A stretch of 64,000 nt of DNA, taken from NCBI RefSeq assembly GCF_000026545.1, contig NC_011601.1; one strand, written 5' to 3'. The number at the start of each line of letters is the position of its first letter. The first letter of the stretch is position 1. Below, one piece after another: positions 2,476-8,400 of this stretch. The stretch comes from Escherichia coli O127:H6 str. E2348/69 (GTDB lineage: Bacteria; Pseudomonadota; Gammaproteobacteria; Enterobacterales; Enterobacteriaceae). The position numbers are program-made.

Positions 2476-5400
2476 TTATCGTTCATGAGAAGCATAACGT
2501 AAAGGGAAAAGCTCGATTAGACGGCAGGATTTGTCAGGGGTTATGAACGAAATTCATAAATCTGTTTGAATGTGGCGATGAGTCGTGCAAGTTCGATATC
2601 CCTGCAATTCACAGTCTGATGAAGGAAAATGAATATCCATAAAAAATATATTGGTTTATCCTGGTGTATATACCTACTTCGACGTATTCCCAATAGCGAT
2701 TAATTAAAGACAGGTCATTATTATTCACTCTTAATAATGAATTATTCACTGCCCGCAGAGTAAGAAATATAACTTAAGTATCTATTTAATAACTTGCACA
2801 AAAAGCTAAATTTTTACCCATAAATAAAAATATAATCCCGCGCCCAACCACCTGATGAGTGGCTACAGACACTGGATATATTAGGTGGCGGTGTACTTTC
2901 TTACATAAAGGTATTTCCTTTTCTGCGGAAAAGGAAATCGGGGATTTCCCGGTTTTTCTGACAGGCAGACGCCATTATTTGTGTCTGCCTATGTTCGTTA
3001 ATTCGTTCATCAGGAAATTATCTCAATGTCACGTTATAAAACAGGTCATAAACAACCACGATTTCGTTATTCAGTTCTGGCCCGCTGCGTGGCGTGGACA
3101 AATATCTCTGTTCAGGTTCTTTTTCCACTCGCTGTCACCTTTACCCCAGTAATGGCGGCACGTGCGCAGCATGCGGTTCAGCCACGGTTGAGCATGGGAA
3201 ATACTACGGTAACTGCTGATAATAACGTGGAGAAAAATGTCGCGTCGTTTGCCGCAAATGCCGGGACATTTTTAAGCAGTCAGCCAGATAGCGATGCGAC
3301 ACGTAATTTTATTACCGGAATGGCCACCGCTAAAGCTAACCAGGAAATTCAGGAGTGGCTCGGGAAATATGGTACAGCGCGCGTCAAACTGAATGTCGAT
3401 AAAGATTTCTCGCTGAAGGACTCTTCGCTGGAAATGCTTTATCCGATTTATGATACACCGACAAATATGTTGTTCACTCAGGGGGCAATACATCGTACCG
3501 ACGATCGTACTCAGTCAAATATTGGTTTTGGCTGGCGTCATTTTTCAGAAAATGACTGGATGGCGGGGGTGAATACTTTTATCGATCATGATTTATCCCG
3601 TAGTCATACCCGCATTGGTGTTGGTGCGGAATACTGGCGTGATTATTTGAAACTGAGCGCCAATGGTTATATCCGGGCTTCTGGCTGGAAAAAATCGCCG
3701 GATGTTGAGGATTATCAGGAACGCCCGGCGAATGGCTGGGATATTCGTGCTGAGGGCTATTTACCTGCCTGGCCGCAGCTTGGCGCAAGCCTGATGTATG
3801 AACAGTATTATGGCGATGAAGTCGGGCTGTTTGGTAAAGATAAACGCCAGAAAGATCCACATGCGATTACCGCTGAAGTGAATTACACGCCAGTGCCTCT
3901 TCTGACCCTGAGTGCCGGGCATAAGCAGGGCAAGAGTGGTGAGAATGACACTCGCTTTGGCCTGGAAGTTAATTATCGGATTGGCGAACCTCTGGAAAAA
4001 CAACTCGATACAGACAGCATTCGCGAGCGTCGAATGTTGGCAGGCAGCCGCTATGACCTGGTTGAGCGTAATAACAATATCGTTCTTGAGTATCGCAAAT
4101 CTGAAGTGATCCGTATTGCTCTGCCTGAGCGTATTGAAGGCAAGGGCGGCCAGACGGTTTCCCTGGGGCTTGTGGTCAGCAAAGCAACTCACGGTCTGAA
4201 AAATGTGCAATGGGAAGCGCCGTCTTTGCTGGCCGCAGGCGGAAAAATTACGGGGCAGGGCAATCAGTGGCAAGTGACGCTCCCGGCTTATCAGGCAGGC
4301 AAAGACAATTATTATGCGATTTCAGCGATTGCCTACGATAACAAAGGCAATGCCTCGAAACGTGTGCAGACAGAAGTGGTTATTAGCGGAGCTGGTATGA
4401 GCGCCGATCGTACGGCGTTAACGCTTGACGGTCAGAGCCGTATTCAAATGCTTGCTAACGGTAATGAGCAAAAGCCGTTGGTGCTGTCTCTGCGCGACGC
4501 CGAGGGGCAGCCAGTCACGGGCATGAAAGATCAGATCAAGACTGAACTAACCTTCAAACCGGCTGGAAATATTGTGACTCGTACCCTGAAGGCCACTAAA
4601 TCACAGGCAAAGCCAACACTGGGTGAGTTCACCGAAACTGAAGCAGGGGTGTATCAGTCTGTCTTTACTACCGGAACGCAGTCAGGTGAGGCAACGATTA
4701 CTGTTAGCGTTGATGACATGAGCAAAACTGTCACTGCAGAACTGCGGGCCACGATGATGAATGTGGCAAACTCCACCCTGAGCGCTAACGAGCCGTCAGG
4801 TGATGTGGTTGCTGATGGTCGGCAAGCCTACACGCTGACACTGACAGCGGTGGACTCCGAGGGTAATCCGGTGACGGGAGAAGCCAGCCGCCTGCGACTT
4901 GTTCCGCAAGACACTAATGGTGTAACCGTTGGTGCCATTTCGGAAATAAAACCAGGGGGTTACAGCGCCACGGTTTCTTCGACCCGTGCCGGAAACGTTG
5001 TTGTGCGTGTCTTCAGCGAGCAGTATCAGCTGGGCACATTACAACAAACGCTGAAGTTTGTTGCCGGGCCGCTTGATGCAGCACATTCGTCCATCACCCT
5101 GAATCCTGATAAACCGGTGGTTGGCGGTACAGTTACGGCAATCTGGACGGCAAAAGATGCTAATGACAACCCTGTAACTGGCCTCAATCCGGATGCACCG
5201 TCATTATCGGGCGCAGCTGCTGCTGGTTCTACGGCATCAGGCTGGACGGATAATGGCGACGGGACCTGGACTGCGCAGATTTCTCTCGGCACTACGGCGG
5301 GTGAATTAGACGTTATGCCGAAGCTCAATGGGCAGGACGCGGCAGCAAATGCGGCAAAAGTAACCGTGGTGGCTGATGCATTATCTTCAAACCAGTCGAA

Positions 5401-8400
5401 AGTCTCTGTCGCAGAAGATCACGTAAAAGCCGGTGAAAGCACAACCGTAACGCTGGTGGCGAAAGATGCGCATGGCAACGCTATCAGTGGTCTTTCGTTG
5501 TCGGCAAGTTTGACGGGGACCGCCTCTGAAGGGGCGACCGTTTCCAGTTGGACCGAAAAAGGTGACGGTTCCTATGTTGCTACGTTAACTACAGGCGGAA
5601 AGACGGGCGAGCTTCGTGTCATGCCGCTCTTCAACGGCCAGCCTGCAGCCACCGAAGCCGCGCAGCTGACTGTTATTGCCGGAGAGATGTCATCAGCGAA
5701 CTCTACGCTTGTTGCGGACAATAAAACTCCAACGGTTAAAACGACGACGGAACTCACCTTCACCGTGAAGGATGCGTACGGGAATCCGGTCACCGGGCTG
5801 AAGCCAGATGCACCAGTGTTTAGTGGTGCCGCCAGCACGGGGAGTGAGCGTCCTTCAGCAGGAAACTGGACAGAGAAAGGTAATGGGGTCTACGTGTCGA
5901 CCTTAACGCTGGGATCTGCCGCGGGTCAGTTGTCTGTGATGCCGCGAGTGAACGGCCAAAATGCCGTTGCTCAGCCACTGGTGCTGAATGTTGCAGGTGA
6001 CGCATCTAAGGCTGAGATTCGTGATATGACAGTGAAGGTTAATAACCAACTGGCTAATGGACAGTCTGCTAACCAGATAACCCTGACCGTCGTGGACAGC
6101 TATGGTAACCCGTTGCAGGGGCAAGAAGTTACGCTGACTTTACCGCAGGGTGTGACCAGCAAGACGGGGAATACAGTAACAACCAATGCGGCAGGGAAAG
6201 TGGACATTGAGCTTATGTCAACGGTTGCAGGGGAACTTGAGATCGAGGCCTCGGTGAAAAACTCTCAGAAGACGGTCAAGGTGAAATTCAAGGCGGATTT
6301 CAGTACCGGTCAGGCGAGCCTGGAGGTAGACGCCGCTGCTCAAAAAGTGGCAAACGGCAAAGATGCCTTTACGCTGACGGCAACGGTTAAGGATCAATAC
6401 GGCAACCTTCTTCCTGGCGCTGTGGTCGTCTTTAATCTGCCTCGGGGCGTCAAACCGCTTGCAGACGGTAATATCATGGTGAACGCCGACAAGGAGGGTA
6501 AAGCGGAACTGAAAGTGGGTTCCGTGACTGCCGGAACCTATGAGATCACGGCGTCAGCAGGAAATGACCAGCCTTCGAATGCGCAGTCTGTAACGTTTGT
6601 GGCTGATAAGACTACGGCGACCATCTCCAGTATTGAGGTGATTGGCAACCGTGCAGTGGCGGACGGCAAAACCAAACAGACGTATAAAGTTACGGTGACT
6701 GATGCCAATAACAACCTGCTGAAAGATAGCGAAGTGACGCTGACTGCCAGCCCGGAAAATTTAGTTCTGACTCCCAATGGGACGGCGACAACGAATGAGC
6801 AAGGGCAGGCTATTTTCACCGCCACGACCACTGTCGCAGCGACATATACACTCACGGCGAAAGTGGAACAGGCCGACGGTCAGGAATCGACGAAAACTGC
6901 CGAATCTAAATTCGTCGCGGATGATAAAAACGCGGTGCTCGCTGCATCTCCAGAGCGTGTAGATTCTCTGGTGGCGGACGGGAAGACTACTGCAACACTG
7001 ACGGTTACTCTGATGTCGGGTGTCAACCCCGTAGGAGGAACCATGTGGGTCGACATTGAGGCTCCGGAAGGGGTGACAGAGGCGGATTATCAGTTCCTGC
7101 CGTCGAAAAATGACCATTTCGCGAGCGGGAAAATCACGCGTACATTTAGTACCAACAAGCCAGGTACATACACATTCACATTCAACTCTTTGACATATGG
7201 AGGGTATGAAATGAAACCAGTGACTGTGACAATTAACGCCGTTCCTGCAGATACTGAAGGCGCTGAGGAGAAATAAAAACGACGATGTAATGAATAATAA
7301 TGGCGTTGACATGCGCAGCGCCATTATTTACTGAATACCTACCCTGGTACCGATTAGACGGTGGCAGGGTAGGGTAAATCTTATGTGATGGAGTTACAGG
7401 CTAAACCGGGCGAACGGGGATAAAAATTTCGCAAACAATGTTATTGCTATCAATTTCGACGAAGTTTTCATTGTAATAAAATCGCTCAATATCACTGCCG
7501 TTCACTCTGGCTAACCCCCTGGCAGGTAATTCCATCAGATAGAGGTTTCGCGCCCATTCAGGGTAGTGCTCCCACTCACCTTCATAGCGGAAAGAGGCAT
7601 ACAGTCCTCGGTTAATTGTCCACTCTTTCGGCATCTCTGAATCGGTTTGTTTGCATACCGTACCGGCAAAAGTTTCAACTGTGAGCAAATCGACCGATTT
7701 TGTTGATGGTTCGAACGTGGAGACGAAATAGATATCCGTCTTAAAATTCTTCATACATCTGACTAAATGATGACGTCGCAGTTTGACTTCTTCATCCGGT
7801 AATTTATTCGACACTTCAATATCATATTTAAATGAATTGCCAAAAATAGGTGTCTCAGGAAAGTTGACTAATCTACACTCCGTCTTTTGCTGTTGACGTA
7901 TTAAAAAAGAAGGGAAGATATTTGCGAGATCCCAATAATCACGGTGGCGGTATTCACGGGGAGAGCAGCCGAATAACTTTTTAAATTCGCGGCTGAATGA
8001 CTGCTGTGAATCAAAATGCAAAGAGAGTGCAATATCAAGCATAGATTTCGCGGAGAGCCGGACAAGAATGGCGGCACGACAAAGCCTGCGTTTGCGAATG
8101 TATTCTCCCAAAGGCACATGCATGAAATTTCGGAACAGAAGCTGGATGTTGCGTCTGCTGTAGCCAGATTTCTGTGCGATATCTTCGATTGAAATAGGGT
8201 GCTCAAGATTGCACTCAATCCACTCCAGGAGCTGCTGTAGAATCTTCTGCCTGATCATCACATTCTCCGTTAATTCTTTGTCATATCGCACATTTTCGTT
8301 ATGTCCTGGGCCCTAAGTGTATCAAAAACAGCAAGGCGCAAGGCAAAAGCACTGATAGCGTCTGCTTCATTGCCCCAAAAATAGAGAGGTTTCAGTCCTA

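What the first reader, a model, noticed from the sequence alone, without database searches (positions are those of the whole stretch)
3026..7276. Intact 1416-aa intimin/invasin-like adhesin (FdeC/EaeH) with a long array of Ig-like repeats
The ORF is uninterrupted and encodes an N-terminal beta-barrel region followed by many ~100-aa bacterial Ig-like repeats sharing the motif (K/V)D(A/S)xGN(P/A)(V/I)(T/S)G. In K-12 the corresponding eaeH is, as far as I recall, truncated by an IS element, so this strain may express a functional adhesin. The near-identical repeats are also a substrate for recombinational length variation.
Basis: partly seen in the sequence, partly recalled or inferred. Interest (0 to 1): 0.45.

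Follow-up and report, generated by a model that had tools for sequence, protein, structure and literature searches.

The report
Intact fdeC adhesin gene, EPEC E2348/69
This is the well-known E. coli surface adhesin gene fdeC (also called eaeH), intact here as it is in about 85% of complete E. coli genomes, and its internal repeats are old and divergent rather than near-identical, so the finding is correct but ordinary.

Summary
The ORF at 3026-7276 (+) is real: 1416 codons with no internal stop. It is 100% identical to the RefSeq gene fdeC, "inverse autotransporter adhesin FdeC", of E. coli E2348/69 (EPEC). It has an inverse-autotransporter beta-barrel (PF11924, E 5e-110, aa 76-350) followed by ten Ig-like domains. 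Residues 595-1008 match the crystallised FdeC fragment 4E9L at 410 of 414 positions. It has no LysM domain and no C-terminal lectin domain, and it scores below the curated cut-offs for intimin, Inv and SinH. It is therefore FdeC, not intimin or invasin. The K-12 recollection is correct: in the two K-12-type laboratory strains sampled only nt 1-876 survive, and in ME8067 an IS3 element replaces window 3902-7597. K-12 is the exception, though: 4596 of 5426 complete genomes carry at least 80% of the passenger-coding part. The "near-identical repeats" claim is wrong. Domain pairs are 19-45% identical in protein and 35-51% in DNA. The longest exact direct repeat is 11 nt, which is chance level. Six intact alleles read in full span 1415-1418 aa, and 83 sampled near-full-length matches differ in span by at most 8 nt. 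Variation is instead allelic mosaicism in the distal domains. Already known; low interest. One weak side lead: a conserved, structured 5' leader whose U-run is predicted to pair with the Shine-Dalgarno sequence.

The parts
2461..3025 (+). 565-bp AT-rich intergenic region upstream of fdeC, presumed to hold the promoter, regulatory sites and 5' leader. The proximal 200 nt are highly conserved between alleles.
   Evidence: GC is 0.36 in windows 2401-3000, against about 0.52 in the flanking genes. The proximal 200 nt are 96.5-99% identical across 7 strains, against 91-98% at third codon positions. H-NS repression is taken from the literature (Easton 2014, cited in PMC11143625) and was not tested here. 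The consensus scan found no sigma-70 match on the + strand.
2913..3017 (+). Predicted structured leader. It has hairpins at 2915-2936, 2937-2953 (followed by a T-run, so terminator-like) and 2965-2988. A long-range helix pairs 2954-2961 with 3010-3017, which covers the Shine-Dalgarno AGGA (3012-3015).
   Evidence: MFE is -46.8 kcal/mol with z -5.3, and the same consensus fold appears in 7 alleles with no compensatory changes. The SD is predicted more than 90% paired from 25 to 45 C. It is not exceptional among 49 genes of the window. This is prediction only.
3026..3250 (+). N-terminal region (aa 1-75). It has a basic N-terminus, a hydrophobic stretch and an AARA motif, consistent with a long Sec signal peptide, followed by a short periplasmic segment. 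There is no LysM domain.
   Evidence: The reading comes from the translation and is an inference. No LysM match appears among the Pfam hits listed for aa 1-1200. The intimin model aligns only from aa 58 of FdeC, which corresponds to intimin position 148.
3251..4075 (+). Inverse-autotransporter beta-barrel domain (aa 76-350).
   Evidence: Pfam IAT_beta PF11924, E 4.8e-110, model positions 3-279 of 279. The solved barrels of invasin (4e1t, E 2e-84) and intimin (4e1s, E 3e-72) align to aa 113-357.
3902..7597 (.). The segment missing in the K-12-type strain ME8067, where an IS3 element takes its place.
   Evidence: blastn of the window against the ME8067 locus: homology ends at window 3901 and resumes at 7598. 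An IS3 transposase is annotated in between.
4097..4435 (+). First Ig-like domain (aa 358-470), equivalent to intimin D00.
   Evidence: PDB 6tqd (intimin D00-D0) aligns to aa 358-479, E 3e-11.
4436..7273 (+). Nine further Ig-like (Big_1 / Invasin_D3) domains, D2-D10 (aa 471-1416), forming the extended passenger. The tip domain D10 is also Ig-like, not a lectin.
   Evidence: Pfam matches lie at aa 474-572, 580-680, 684-783, 788-885, 890-986, 1000-1090, 1096-1193, 1200-1298 and 1313-1403. The AF2 model of aa 1197-1416 is all-beta with pLDDT 75. Its best PDB matches are intimin D0-D1, invasin and InvD.
4808..6049 (+). Region corresponding to the crystallised FdeC fragment B (PDB 4E9L), aa 595-1008.
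   Evidence: phmmer E 2.7e-257; 410 of 414 residues are identical.
7296..7328 (.). Conserved GC-rich hairpin between the convergent genes fdeC and ykgA, likely a shared terminator.
   Evidence: Fold of 7270-7400: MFE -48.3, z -6.2. The hairpin is conserved across alleles, with a stem change from G-U to A-U. Its function is inferred.
7401..8258 (-). Convergent neighbour ykgA, a Rob-like AraC-family regulator. It belongs to the conserved fdeC locus, and no link to fdeC regulation is known.
   Evidence: RefSeq annotation. NCBIfam RobA model, E 1.6e-56, below its cut-off.

Best explanation
Window 3026-7276 (+) is fdeC (= eaeH) of E. coli E2348/69, an intact type Ve (inverse autotransporter) adhesin gene.

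Mechanism, partly shown here and partly taken from the family. The N-terminal signal peptide takes the protein across the inner membrane. The N-terminal 12-stranded barrel (aa 76-357) is inserted in the outer membrane with help from BAM and TAM. The C-terminal passenger of ten tandem Ig-like domains is threaded out through the barrel. It then folds into a rod roughly 40 nm long whose distal part contacts host surfaces. For closely related alleles the reported targets are collagens I, III, V and VI, epithelial cells, and other bacteria (aggregation and biofilm).

Expression is probably low under standard laboratory conditions. It is probably controlled from the AT-rich, conserved 565-bp upstream region, by H-NS silencing that is relieved by higher temperature or host contact.

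Diversity in the species comes from allelic mosaicism of the distal domains and from occasional inactivation by IS insertion, deletion or frameshift. It does not come from changes in repeat number.
For: The gene is 100% identical over 4251 nt to the RefSeq gene fdeC of E2348/69.

The domain architecture is IAT_beta followed by ten Ig-like domains.

It is 99% identical (410 of 414 residues) to the solved FdeC fragment 4E9L.

It sits in the same locus as in other strains, followed by ykgA, an aldo/keto reductase gene, rclCBA and rclR.

It aligns end to end with six other intact alleles of 1415-1418 aa.

The predicted tip is Ig-like.

The upstream region has 36% GC and is conserved.

From the literature: adhesion, collagen binding, the K-12 pseudogene and induction on cell contact (PMC3324786); TAM-assisted assembly, ten Big domains and the 50 kDa barrel plus 100 kDa passenger fragments (PMC4943183); dependence on temperature and H-NS (PMC11143625, citing Easton 2014); near-ubiquity and a B2-type allele (PMC8281228).
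Against: Nothing contradicts the identification.

The functional statements rest on other alleles (IHE3034, CFT073, EHEC, ETEC, APEC). In the papers I searched I found no experimental work on FdeC of E2348/69 itself; searches turned up genome surveys only.

In APEC IMT5155, deleting fdeC increased adhesion and motility (PMC11143625). The net role therefore depends on strain and context.

The signal peptide and the promoter were not tested. The consensus scan found no sigma-70 match on the + strand upstream.
Confidence: 0.95

Rival explanations
1. The gene is a length-variable (contingency-like) adhesin locus. On this view, near-identical tandem repeats recombine to add or remove Ig-like domains.
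For: The protein is modular, with ten domains of about 100 aa. One genome (BUCT2930) has a 631-nt deletion whose ends lie at nearly equivalent places in domains D4 and D6, the most similar pair.
Against: Domains are only 19-45% identical in protein and 35-51% in DNA, and the longest exact repeat is 11 nt, which is chance level. No tandem array with a domain-sized period is detected. Intact alleles read in full are 1415-1418 aa. In the 83 near-full-length sampled matches the matched span differs from the query by 0-8 nt. The single deletion is out of frame, uses about 4 nt of microhomology, and gives a pseudogene.
Confidence: 0.03
2. It is an intimin or an invasin proper, that is, a second eae-like Tir-binding or integrin-binding protein.
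For: It shares the barrel and the Ig-like domains. The best structural relatives are intimin and invasin.
Against: Pfam finds no LysM domain in aa 1-1200 and no Intimin_C lectin domain in aa 1001-1416. It scores below the curated NCBIfam cut-offs: intimin_all 390 against 1400, Inv 310 against 710, SinH 307 against 999. It has ten Ig-like domains rather than four. The locus is next to ykgA and the rcl genes rather than the LEE island, whose genes are not among the neighbours.
Confidence: 0.01
3. The ORF looks intact, but the gene is effectively cryptic in this strain. It would be permanently silenced or untranslated, and so would contribute nothing to EPEC adhesion, which intimin-Tir and BFP dominate.
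For: fdeC is reported as not expressed in vitro in ExPEC and as silenced by H-NS in EHEC (PMC3324786; PMC11143625). The upstream region is AT-rich. The Shine-Dalgarno sequence is predicted to be more than 90% paired.
Against: The ORF, the leader and the locus are all conserved across phylogroups. Barrel identity is 98-99%. This argues for continued selection and therefore for expression under some condition. Induction conditions are known for other strains.
Confidence: 0.2
4. Its main role is bacterium-to-bacterium aggregation, biofilm formation and modulation of motility, rather than host-receptor adhesion.
For: Constitutive expression in K-12 causes aggregation (PMC3324786). Easton 2014, as summarised in PMC4943183, reports biofilm formation. 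Deletion in APEC raised motility and adhesion (PMC11143625).
Against: Recombinant FdeC fragment AB binds collagens with a Kd of about 1e-8 M and binds epithelial cells, and FdeC contributes to kidney and bladder colonisation (PMC3324786).
Confidence: 0.2

Closest known systems
FdeC of ExPEC IHE3034 / CFT073 (Nesta et al. 2012, PDB 4E9L) and EaeH of ETEC H10407
   Same: Aa 595-1008 are 410/414 identical to the 4E9L chain. I did not retrieve the full-length IHE3034, CFT073 or H10407 sequences. The six other alleles I read in full share the length (1415-1418 aa), the ten-domain architecture, the start codon and the downstream neighbour ykgA. RefSeq gives this gene the same product name.
   Different: Only allelic substitutions were seen. 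This is the B2-type allele, 99.3-99.8% identical in DNA to other strains carrying it (NC101, strain O18). It is 91-95% identical to A/B1/E-type alleles. Most protein divergence lies in D7-D10, down to 75% in D8.
Intimin (Eae) of EPEC/EHEC
   Same: Both have the type Ve inverse-autotransporter barrel (4e1s, E 3e-72), a D00-like first Ig domain, and a passenger of Big domains.
   Different: FdeC has no LysM domain and no C-terminal C-type-lectin-like Tir-binding domain. It has ten Ig-like domains rather than four, and it is not in the LEE island. It scores below the curated intimin cut-off.
Invasin (Inv), InvD and InvE of Yersinia
   Same: Barrel (4e1t, E 2e-84) and Invasin_D3-type Ig domains; a rod-like array.
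   Different: Pfam finds only Big_1/Invasin_D3-type Ig domains through to the C-terminus, with nothing resembling invasin's terminal integrin-binding domain, and the predicted tip is all-beta. It is below the Inv cut-off. The reported ligand is collagen (PMC3324786).
K-12 eaeH remnant (seen here in strains ME8067 and TG1)
   Same: The first 876 nt of the gene are 97% identical, and the upstream intergenic region plus that 5' part are 96% identical overall.
   Different: K-12 lacks nt 877-4251. In ME8067 an IS3 replaces that part together with the 3' end of ykgA. The K-12 locus also lacks the LysR and aldo/keto-reductase genes that lie upstream here (window 1-2474).

Membership tests
Inverse autotransporter (type Ve secretion, PF11924) | The IAT beta-barrel domain lies N-terminal to the passenger. 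| tested here: met
   IAT_beta at aa 76-350, E 4.8e-110, full model coverage. It aligns to the solved barrels 4e1t and 4e1s.
Inverse autotransporter (type Ve secretion, PF11924) | A C-terminal passenger built from bacterial Ig-like domains. | tested here: met
   Nine Big_1/Invasin_D3 matches plus a D00-like domain, aa 358-1403. The AF2 model of D9-D10 is a tandem beta-sandwich.
Inverse autotransporter (type Ve secretion, PF11924) | An N-terminal Sec signal peptide. | tested here: inconclusive
   The translation shows a basic N-terminus, a hydrophobic stretch at about aa 27-44, and AARA followed by Q. No signal-peptide predictor was available.
FdeC / EaeH orthologue group | Near-identity to experimentally characterised FdeC. 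| tested here: met
   410 of 414 residues are identical to the 4E9L chain. The gene is 100% identical to a RefSeq gene named fdeC.
FdeC / EaeH orthologue group | A conserved chromosomal position upstream of ykgA, rclCBA and rclR. | tested here: met
   The downstream genes are the same in E2348/69, K-12 ME8067 and BUCT2930. ykgA also follows fdeC in the six further strains.
FdeC / EaeH orthologue group | About 1416 aa with ten Big domains. | tested here: met
   This gene encodes 1416 aa and other alleles 1415-1418 aa. Ten domains are found, matching the count given in PMC4943183.
FdeC / EaeH orthologue group | Binding to collagen and epithelial cells, and surface display. | not testable with these tools
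   This is known only for other alleles (PMC3324786).
Intimin (Eae) | A periplasmic LysM domain. | tested here: not met
   No LysM hit appears among the Pfam hits listed for aa 1-1200. Only about 57 residues precede the region that aligns with intimin.
Intimin (Eae) | A C-terminal C-type-lectin-like domain (Intimin_C) that binds Tir. | tested here: not met
   There is no Intimin_C hit in aa 1001-1416, and the tip is Ig-like.
Intimin (Eae) | A score above the curated NCBIfam cut-off. | tested here: not met
   intimin_all scores 389.7 bits against a cut-off of 1400.
Invasin (Inv) / SinH / YchO | A score above the curated NCBIfam cut-off. | tested here: not met
   Inv N-terminal model 310 against 710; SinH 307 against 999; YchO/YchP 287 against 508.
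Repeat-driven length-variable surface protein gene | Long, near-identical DNA repeats within the gene. | tested here: not met
   The longest exact repeat is 11 nt, which is chance level, and domain DNA identity is 35-51%. No domain-period tandem array is found.
Repeat-driven length-variable surface protein gene | Alleles in the population that differ by whole repeat units. | tested here: not met
   The 83 near-full-length sampled matches differ in span by 0-8 nt, and seven alleles read in full, counting this one, are 1415-1418 aa. This was a sample, not a complete tally.
RNA thermometer (fourU-like) in the fdeC leader (side lead) | A U-rich strand pairs with the Shine-Dalgarno sequence in a conserved structure. 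| tested here: inconclusive
   The helix 2954-2961: 3010-3017 is predicted in all 7 alleles. There are no compensatory changes, and the SD pairing is not exceptional, ranking 9th of 49 genes.
RNA thermometer (fourU-like) in the fdeC leader (side lead) | The structure melts in the physiological temperature range. | tested here: inconclusive
   The predicted probability that the SD is unpaired rises only from 0.01-0.09 at 25 C to 0.08-0.14 at 45 C. The transcription start site is unknown.

The most novel reading that the evidence does not exclude
The nearly invariant 5' leader of fdeC (window about 2913-3017) may be a post-transcriptional switch. It has three predicted hairpins, one of them terminator-like. 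The U-run after that hairpin is predicted to pair with the Shine-Dalgarno sequence. Such a switch could act as an attenuator, as a thermometer-like element, or in response to a trans-acting factor. It would contribute to the reported temperature-dependent and contact-dependent expression of FdeC, which has so far been attributed to H-NS.
Probability: 0.1. Interest if true: 0.35.

Novelty: already known. Interest (0 to 1): 0.08.

Why it matters
FdeC/EaeH is a broadly conserved E. coli adhesin and a vaccine candidate. Knowing that the prototype EPEC strain carries the intact B2-type allele is useful bookkeeping, but it is already in RefSeq and was anticipated by Nesta et al. 2012.

The practical corrections are these:
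- Intactness is the rule in the species, and K-12 is the outlier.
- The Ig-like repeats are too divergent to drive changes in repeat number.
- Antigenic diversity sits in mosaic distal domains (D7-D10). This bears on vaccine coverage more than gene presence does.

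Tried and rejected
- Hidden frameshift or stop: rejected. The translation is clean, the ends agree with RefSeq, and the protein aligns end to end with six intact alleles.
- Near-identical repeats and repeat-number variation: rejected.
- Intimin, invasin or SinH membership: rejected.
- A lectin-like tip domain: rejected by Pfam and by an AF2 model with Foldseek. The model has only moderate confidence (pLDDT 75).
- Known RNA families in window 1-12000: no match at E up to 1.
- Sigma-70 promoter scan upstream of fdeC: no + strand match, and the number of sites found was not above the shuffled controls.
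- RNA-thermometer idea for the leader: followed with folding at six temperatures, a 7-allele consensus fold and a 49-gene control. The SD is predicted paired, but melting is weak, there is no covariation, and the pairing is not exceptional. It is kept only as a weak lead.
- Easton et al. 2014 (PMC4249167), the paper on H-NS and temperature regulation, is not held in the library. Its claims are cited second-hand from PMC11143625 and PMC4943183.
- I did not run the large protein-database or genome-collection scans, because the identification was already unambiguous.

Full report
**Where the window comes from.** A megablast search of window 3026-7276 against all complete E. coli genomes gives a 100% match over all 4251 nt. 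The match is to the chromosome of E. coli E2348/69, the prototype EPEC strain (NZ_CP059840.2, reverse strand). The gene there is annotated as "fdeC: inverse autotransporter adhesin FdeC", WP_000092633.1, with exactly the same start and stop. Window position x corresponds to record position 3874713 - x.

**Checking the observation.**
- The ORF is real. It has 1416 sense codons plus a stop and no internal stop, and 3026 is the first possible start codon in that frame. An AGGA at 3012-3015 lies 10 nt upstream of the ATG.
- Pfam finds the inverse-autotransporter barrel (IAT_beta, PF11924) at aa 76-350, with E 4.8e-110 and full model coverage.
- Pfam also finds nine Big_1/Invasin_D3 domains, at aa 474-572, 580-680, 684-783, 788-885, 890-986, 1000-1090, 1096-1193, 1200-1298 and 1313-1403.
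- Aa 358-479 align with the D00 domain of intimin (6tqd, E 3e-11). The total is therefore ten Ig-like domains, the number given for FdeC by Heinz et al. 2016 (PMC4943183).

**The repeats are not near-identical.**
- Pairwise identity between the ten domains is 19-45% in protein and 35-51% in codon-aligned DNA. The closest trio is D4, D5 and D6.
- The repeat finder reports only 15-24 nt imperfect matches.
- Tandem Repeats Finder sees no array with a domain-sized period.
- The longest exact direct repeat in the gene is 11 nt. Codon-shuffled versions of the gene give a mean of 11.4 and a maximum of 15.
- There is therefore no substrate for homologous recombination between repeats.

**What it is.**
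- Residues 595-1008 match the crystallised FdeC fragment (PDB 4E9L) at 410 of 414 positions.
- The barrel aligns with the solved barrels of invasin (4e1t, E 2e-84) and intimin (4e1s, E 3e-72).
- It is neither intimin nor invasin. There is no LysM domain and no Intimin_C lectin domain.
- All curated NCBIfam models for intimin, Inv, SinH and YchO score far below their cut-offs.
- An AlphaFold2 model of the last two domains (aa 1197-1416) has mean pLDDT 75 from a shallow alignment of 7 alleles. It is all-beta. Its best matches among solved structures are tandem Ig-like domains of intimin (6tpl, 6tqd), invasin (1cwv) and InvD. The tip is therefore Ig-like.

**K-12 and the population.**
- In the two K-12-type laboratory strains that appeared in the sampled listing (ME8067 and TG1), only nt 1-876 of the gene match, at 97% identity.
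- In ME8067 this part is followed by an IS3 element. Homology with the window ends at 3901 and resumes at 7598. The IS3 therefore replaces the remaining 3375 nt of fdeC, the spacer, and the 3' end of the convergent gene ykgA.
- K-12 is the exception. Of 5426 complete genomes, 5077 have some match to the gene. 4728 have some match to the passenger-coding part, and 4596 (85%) have at least 80% of it in one place.
- About 350 genomes match the gene but not its passenger-coding part, as K-12 does, and about 350 have no match at all.

**Length variation.**
- In the two evenly spaced samples of the ranking there are 83 near-full-length matches (26 and 57 rows). Their matched span differs from the query span by 0-8 nt, never by a domain unit.
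- Six further intact alleles read in full encode 1415-1418 aa.
- The one larger change examined is a 631-nt deletion in strain BUCT2930. Its ends lie at nearly equivalent places in D4 and D6. It uses only about 4 nt of microhomology, is out of frame, and is annotated as a frameshifted pseudogene. Another sampled row (H16, strain PO06101) has a 1-nt difference in span, and its gene is annotated in two pieces.
- What does vary is sequence. Compared with E2348/69, the barrel is 98-99% identical in protein. D8 falls to 75% and D10 to 78%.
- The pattern is mosaic. For example, strain 23CRST050 has D8 at 75% but D10 at 99%, and strain 2014C-3599 has D4 at 99% but D6 at 90%.
- This fits exchange of segments between alleles. 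It also fits the conservation gradient shown by Heinz et al. (PMC4943183) and the B2-specific allele noted by PMC8281228.

**How it most likely works.**
- Shown here: the architecture, with a barrel N-terminal to the passenger, ten Ig-like domains and an Ig-like tip.
- Taken from the family: Sec export; barrel insertion helped by BAM and TAM; and passenger export through the barrel. Heinz et al. showed TAM-enhanced assembly of CFT073 FdeC, with a protease-defined 50 kDa barrel part and 100 kDa passenger (PMC4943183).
- Three domains span 126 Å in the crystal (PMC3324786). Ten domains would then give a rod of roughly 40 nm; this is my inference.
- Reported functions of closely related alleles are binding to collagens I, III, V and VI with a Kd of about 1e-8 M, binding to epithelial cells, bacterial aggregation, and colonisation of kidney and bladder (PMC3324786).
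- Expression is reported to be absent in vitro and induced on host-cell contact (PMC3324786). It is also reported to depend on H-NS and on temperatures of 39 C or more in EHEC, and on 42 C in APEC (PMC11143625, citing Easton 2014). I could not read Easton 2014 itself.
- Consistent with H-NS control, the 565-bp upstream region has 36% GC against about 52% in the flanking genes.
- In APEC, deleting fdeC increased adhesion and motility (PMC11143625). The net phenotype is therefore context-dependent.
- I found no experimental work on FdeC of E2348/69 itself. "May express a functional adhesin" remains an inference from intactness and conservation.

**Side lead: the leader.**
- The last 200 nt before the start codon are 96.5-99% identical among eight strains (E2348/69 compared with seven others). 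Third codon positions of the adjacent coding sequence are 91-98% identical, and the distal intergenic region is 92-95% identical.
- Window 2900-3050 is predicted to fold stably (MFE -46.8 kcal/mol, z -5.3).
- The fold has three hairpins. The second is followed by a T-run and is terminator-like (also flagged).
- That U-run (2954-2961) is predicted to pair with 3010-3017, which covers the Shine-Dalgarno sequence. The same fold is the consensus of seven alleles.
- The support is weak. There are no compensatory changes, because the sequences hardly vary.
- The predicted opening of the SD between 25 and 45 C is small.
- With a uniform measure, fdeC ranks only 9th of 49 genes in the window for SD pairing.
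- There is no Rfam match, and no held paper mentions both fdeC and "RNA thermometer".
- I keep it as the most novel reading not excluded, with probability about 0.1.

**Verdict.** The identification is correct. The K-12 statement is correct but already published. The recombination idea is not supported. This is an already known, already annotated gene in its normal state.

Noticed in passing
window 2913-3017 (+): The conserved fdeC leader is predicted to form three hairpins. One is terminator-like and is followed by a T-run. That U-run (2954-2961) is predicted to pair with the Shine-Dalgarno region (3010-3017). The fold has z -5.3, but there is no covariation, predicted melting is weak, and the SD pairing is not exceptional among 49 genes.
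   Followed up: partly
window 7296-7328 and 7338-7373: A strong conserved hairpin lies between the convergent genes fdeC and ykgA and is probably a shared terminator. A second 36-nt hairpin just downstream is present in E2348/69, 23CRST050 and HB37, divergent in strain D7, and missing (an 18-nt gap in the alignment) in the O157:H7, FDAARGOS_1059 and 2014C-3599 alleles.
   Followed up: partly
window 4436-7273 compared with L005-L010: fdeC alleles are mosaic. The barrel is 98-99% identical in protein, whereas D8 drops to 75% and D10 to 78%. Different strains share different blocks, which suggests recombination between alleles rather than within the gene.
   Followed up: partly
L003 5262-5265 (E. 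coli BUCT2930); corresponds to window 5291-5921: A 631-nt out-of-frame deletion joins nearly equivalent positions of Ig-like domains D4 and D6 through about 4 nt of microhomology, giving a frameshifted pseudogene. It could also be an assembly error.
   Followed up: partly
window 1-2474: The LysR-regulator gene and the two aldo/keto-reductase genes upstream of fdeC have no counterpart next to the K-12 eaeH remnant, where ykgR, ykgMO and ykgL lie instead. BUCT2930 has the K-12-like upstream arrangement, and strains D7, FDAARGOS_1059 and 2014C-3599 carry the same 90-nt gene remnant at that position. Homology with K-12 starts at window 2475. A further part of the downstream aldo/keto-reductase gene (window about 8522-9246) is also missing in K-12.
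   Followed up: partly
window 62652-64000 (+): RefSeq annotates the classical autotransporter adhesin gene ehaB as frameshifted (a pseudogene) in this strain. It runs off the end of the window.
   Followed up: no
window 36104-36347 (+): RefSeq annotates yahM as frameshifted. A fragment of a GlxA-family regulator gene lies next to lacI (record 3820398-3820496).
   Followed up: no
window 7401-8258 (-): The convergent neighbour ykgA encodes a Rob-like AraC-family regulator (RobA model E 1.6e-56, below cut-off). It is truncated by the same IS3 event in K-12. Whether it regulates fdeC is unknown to me.
   Followed up: no
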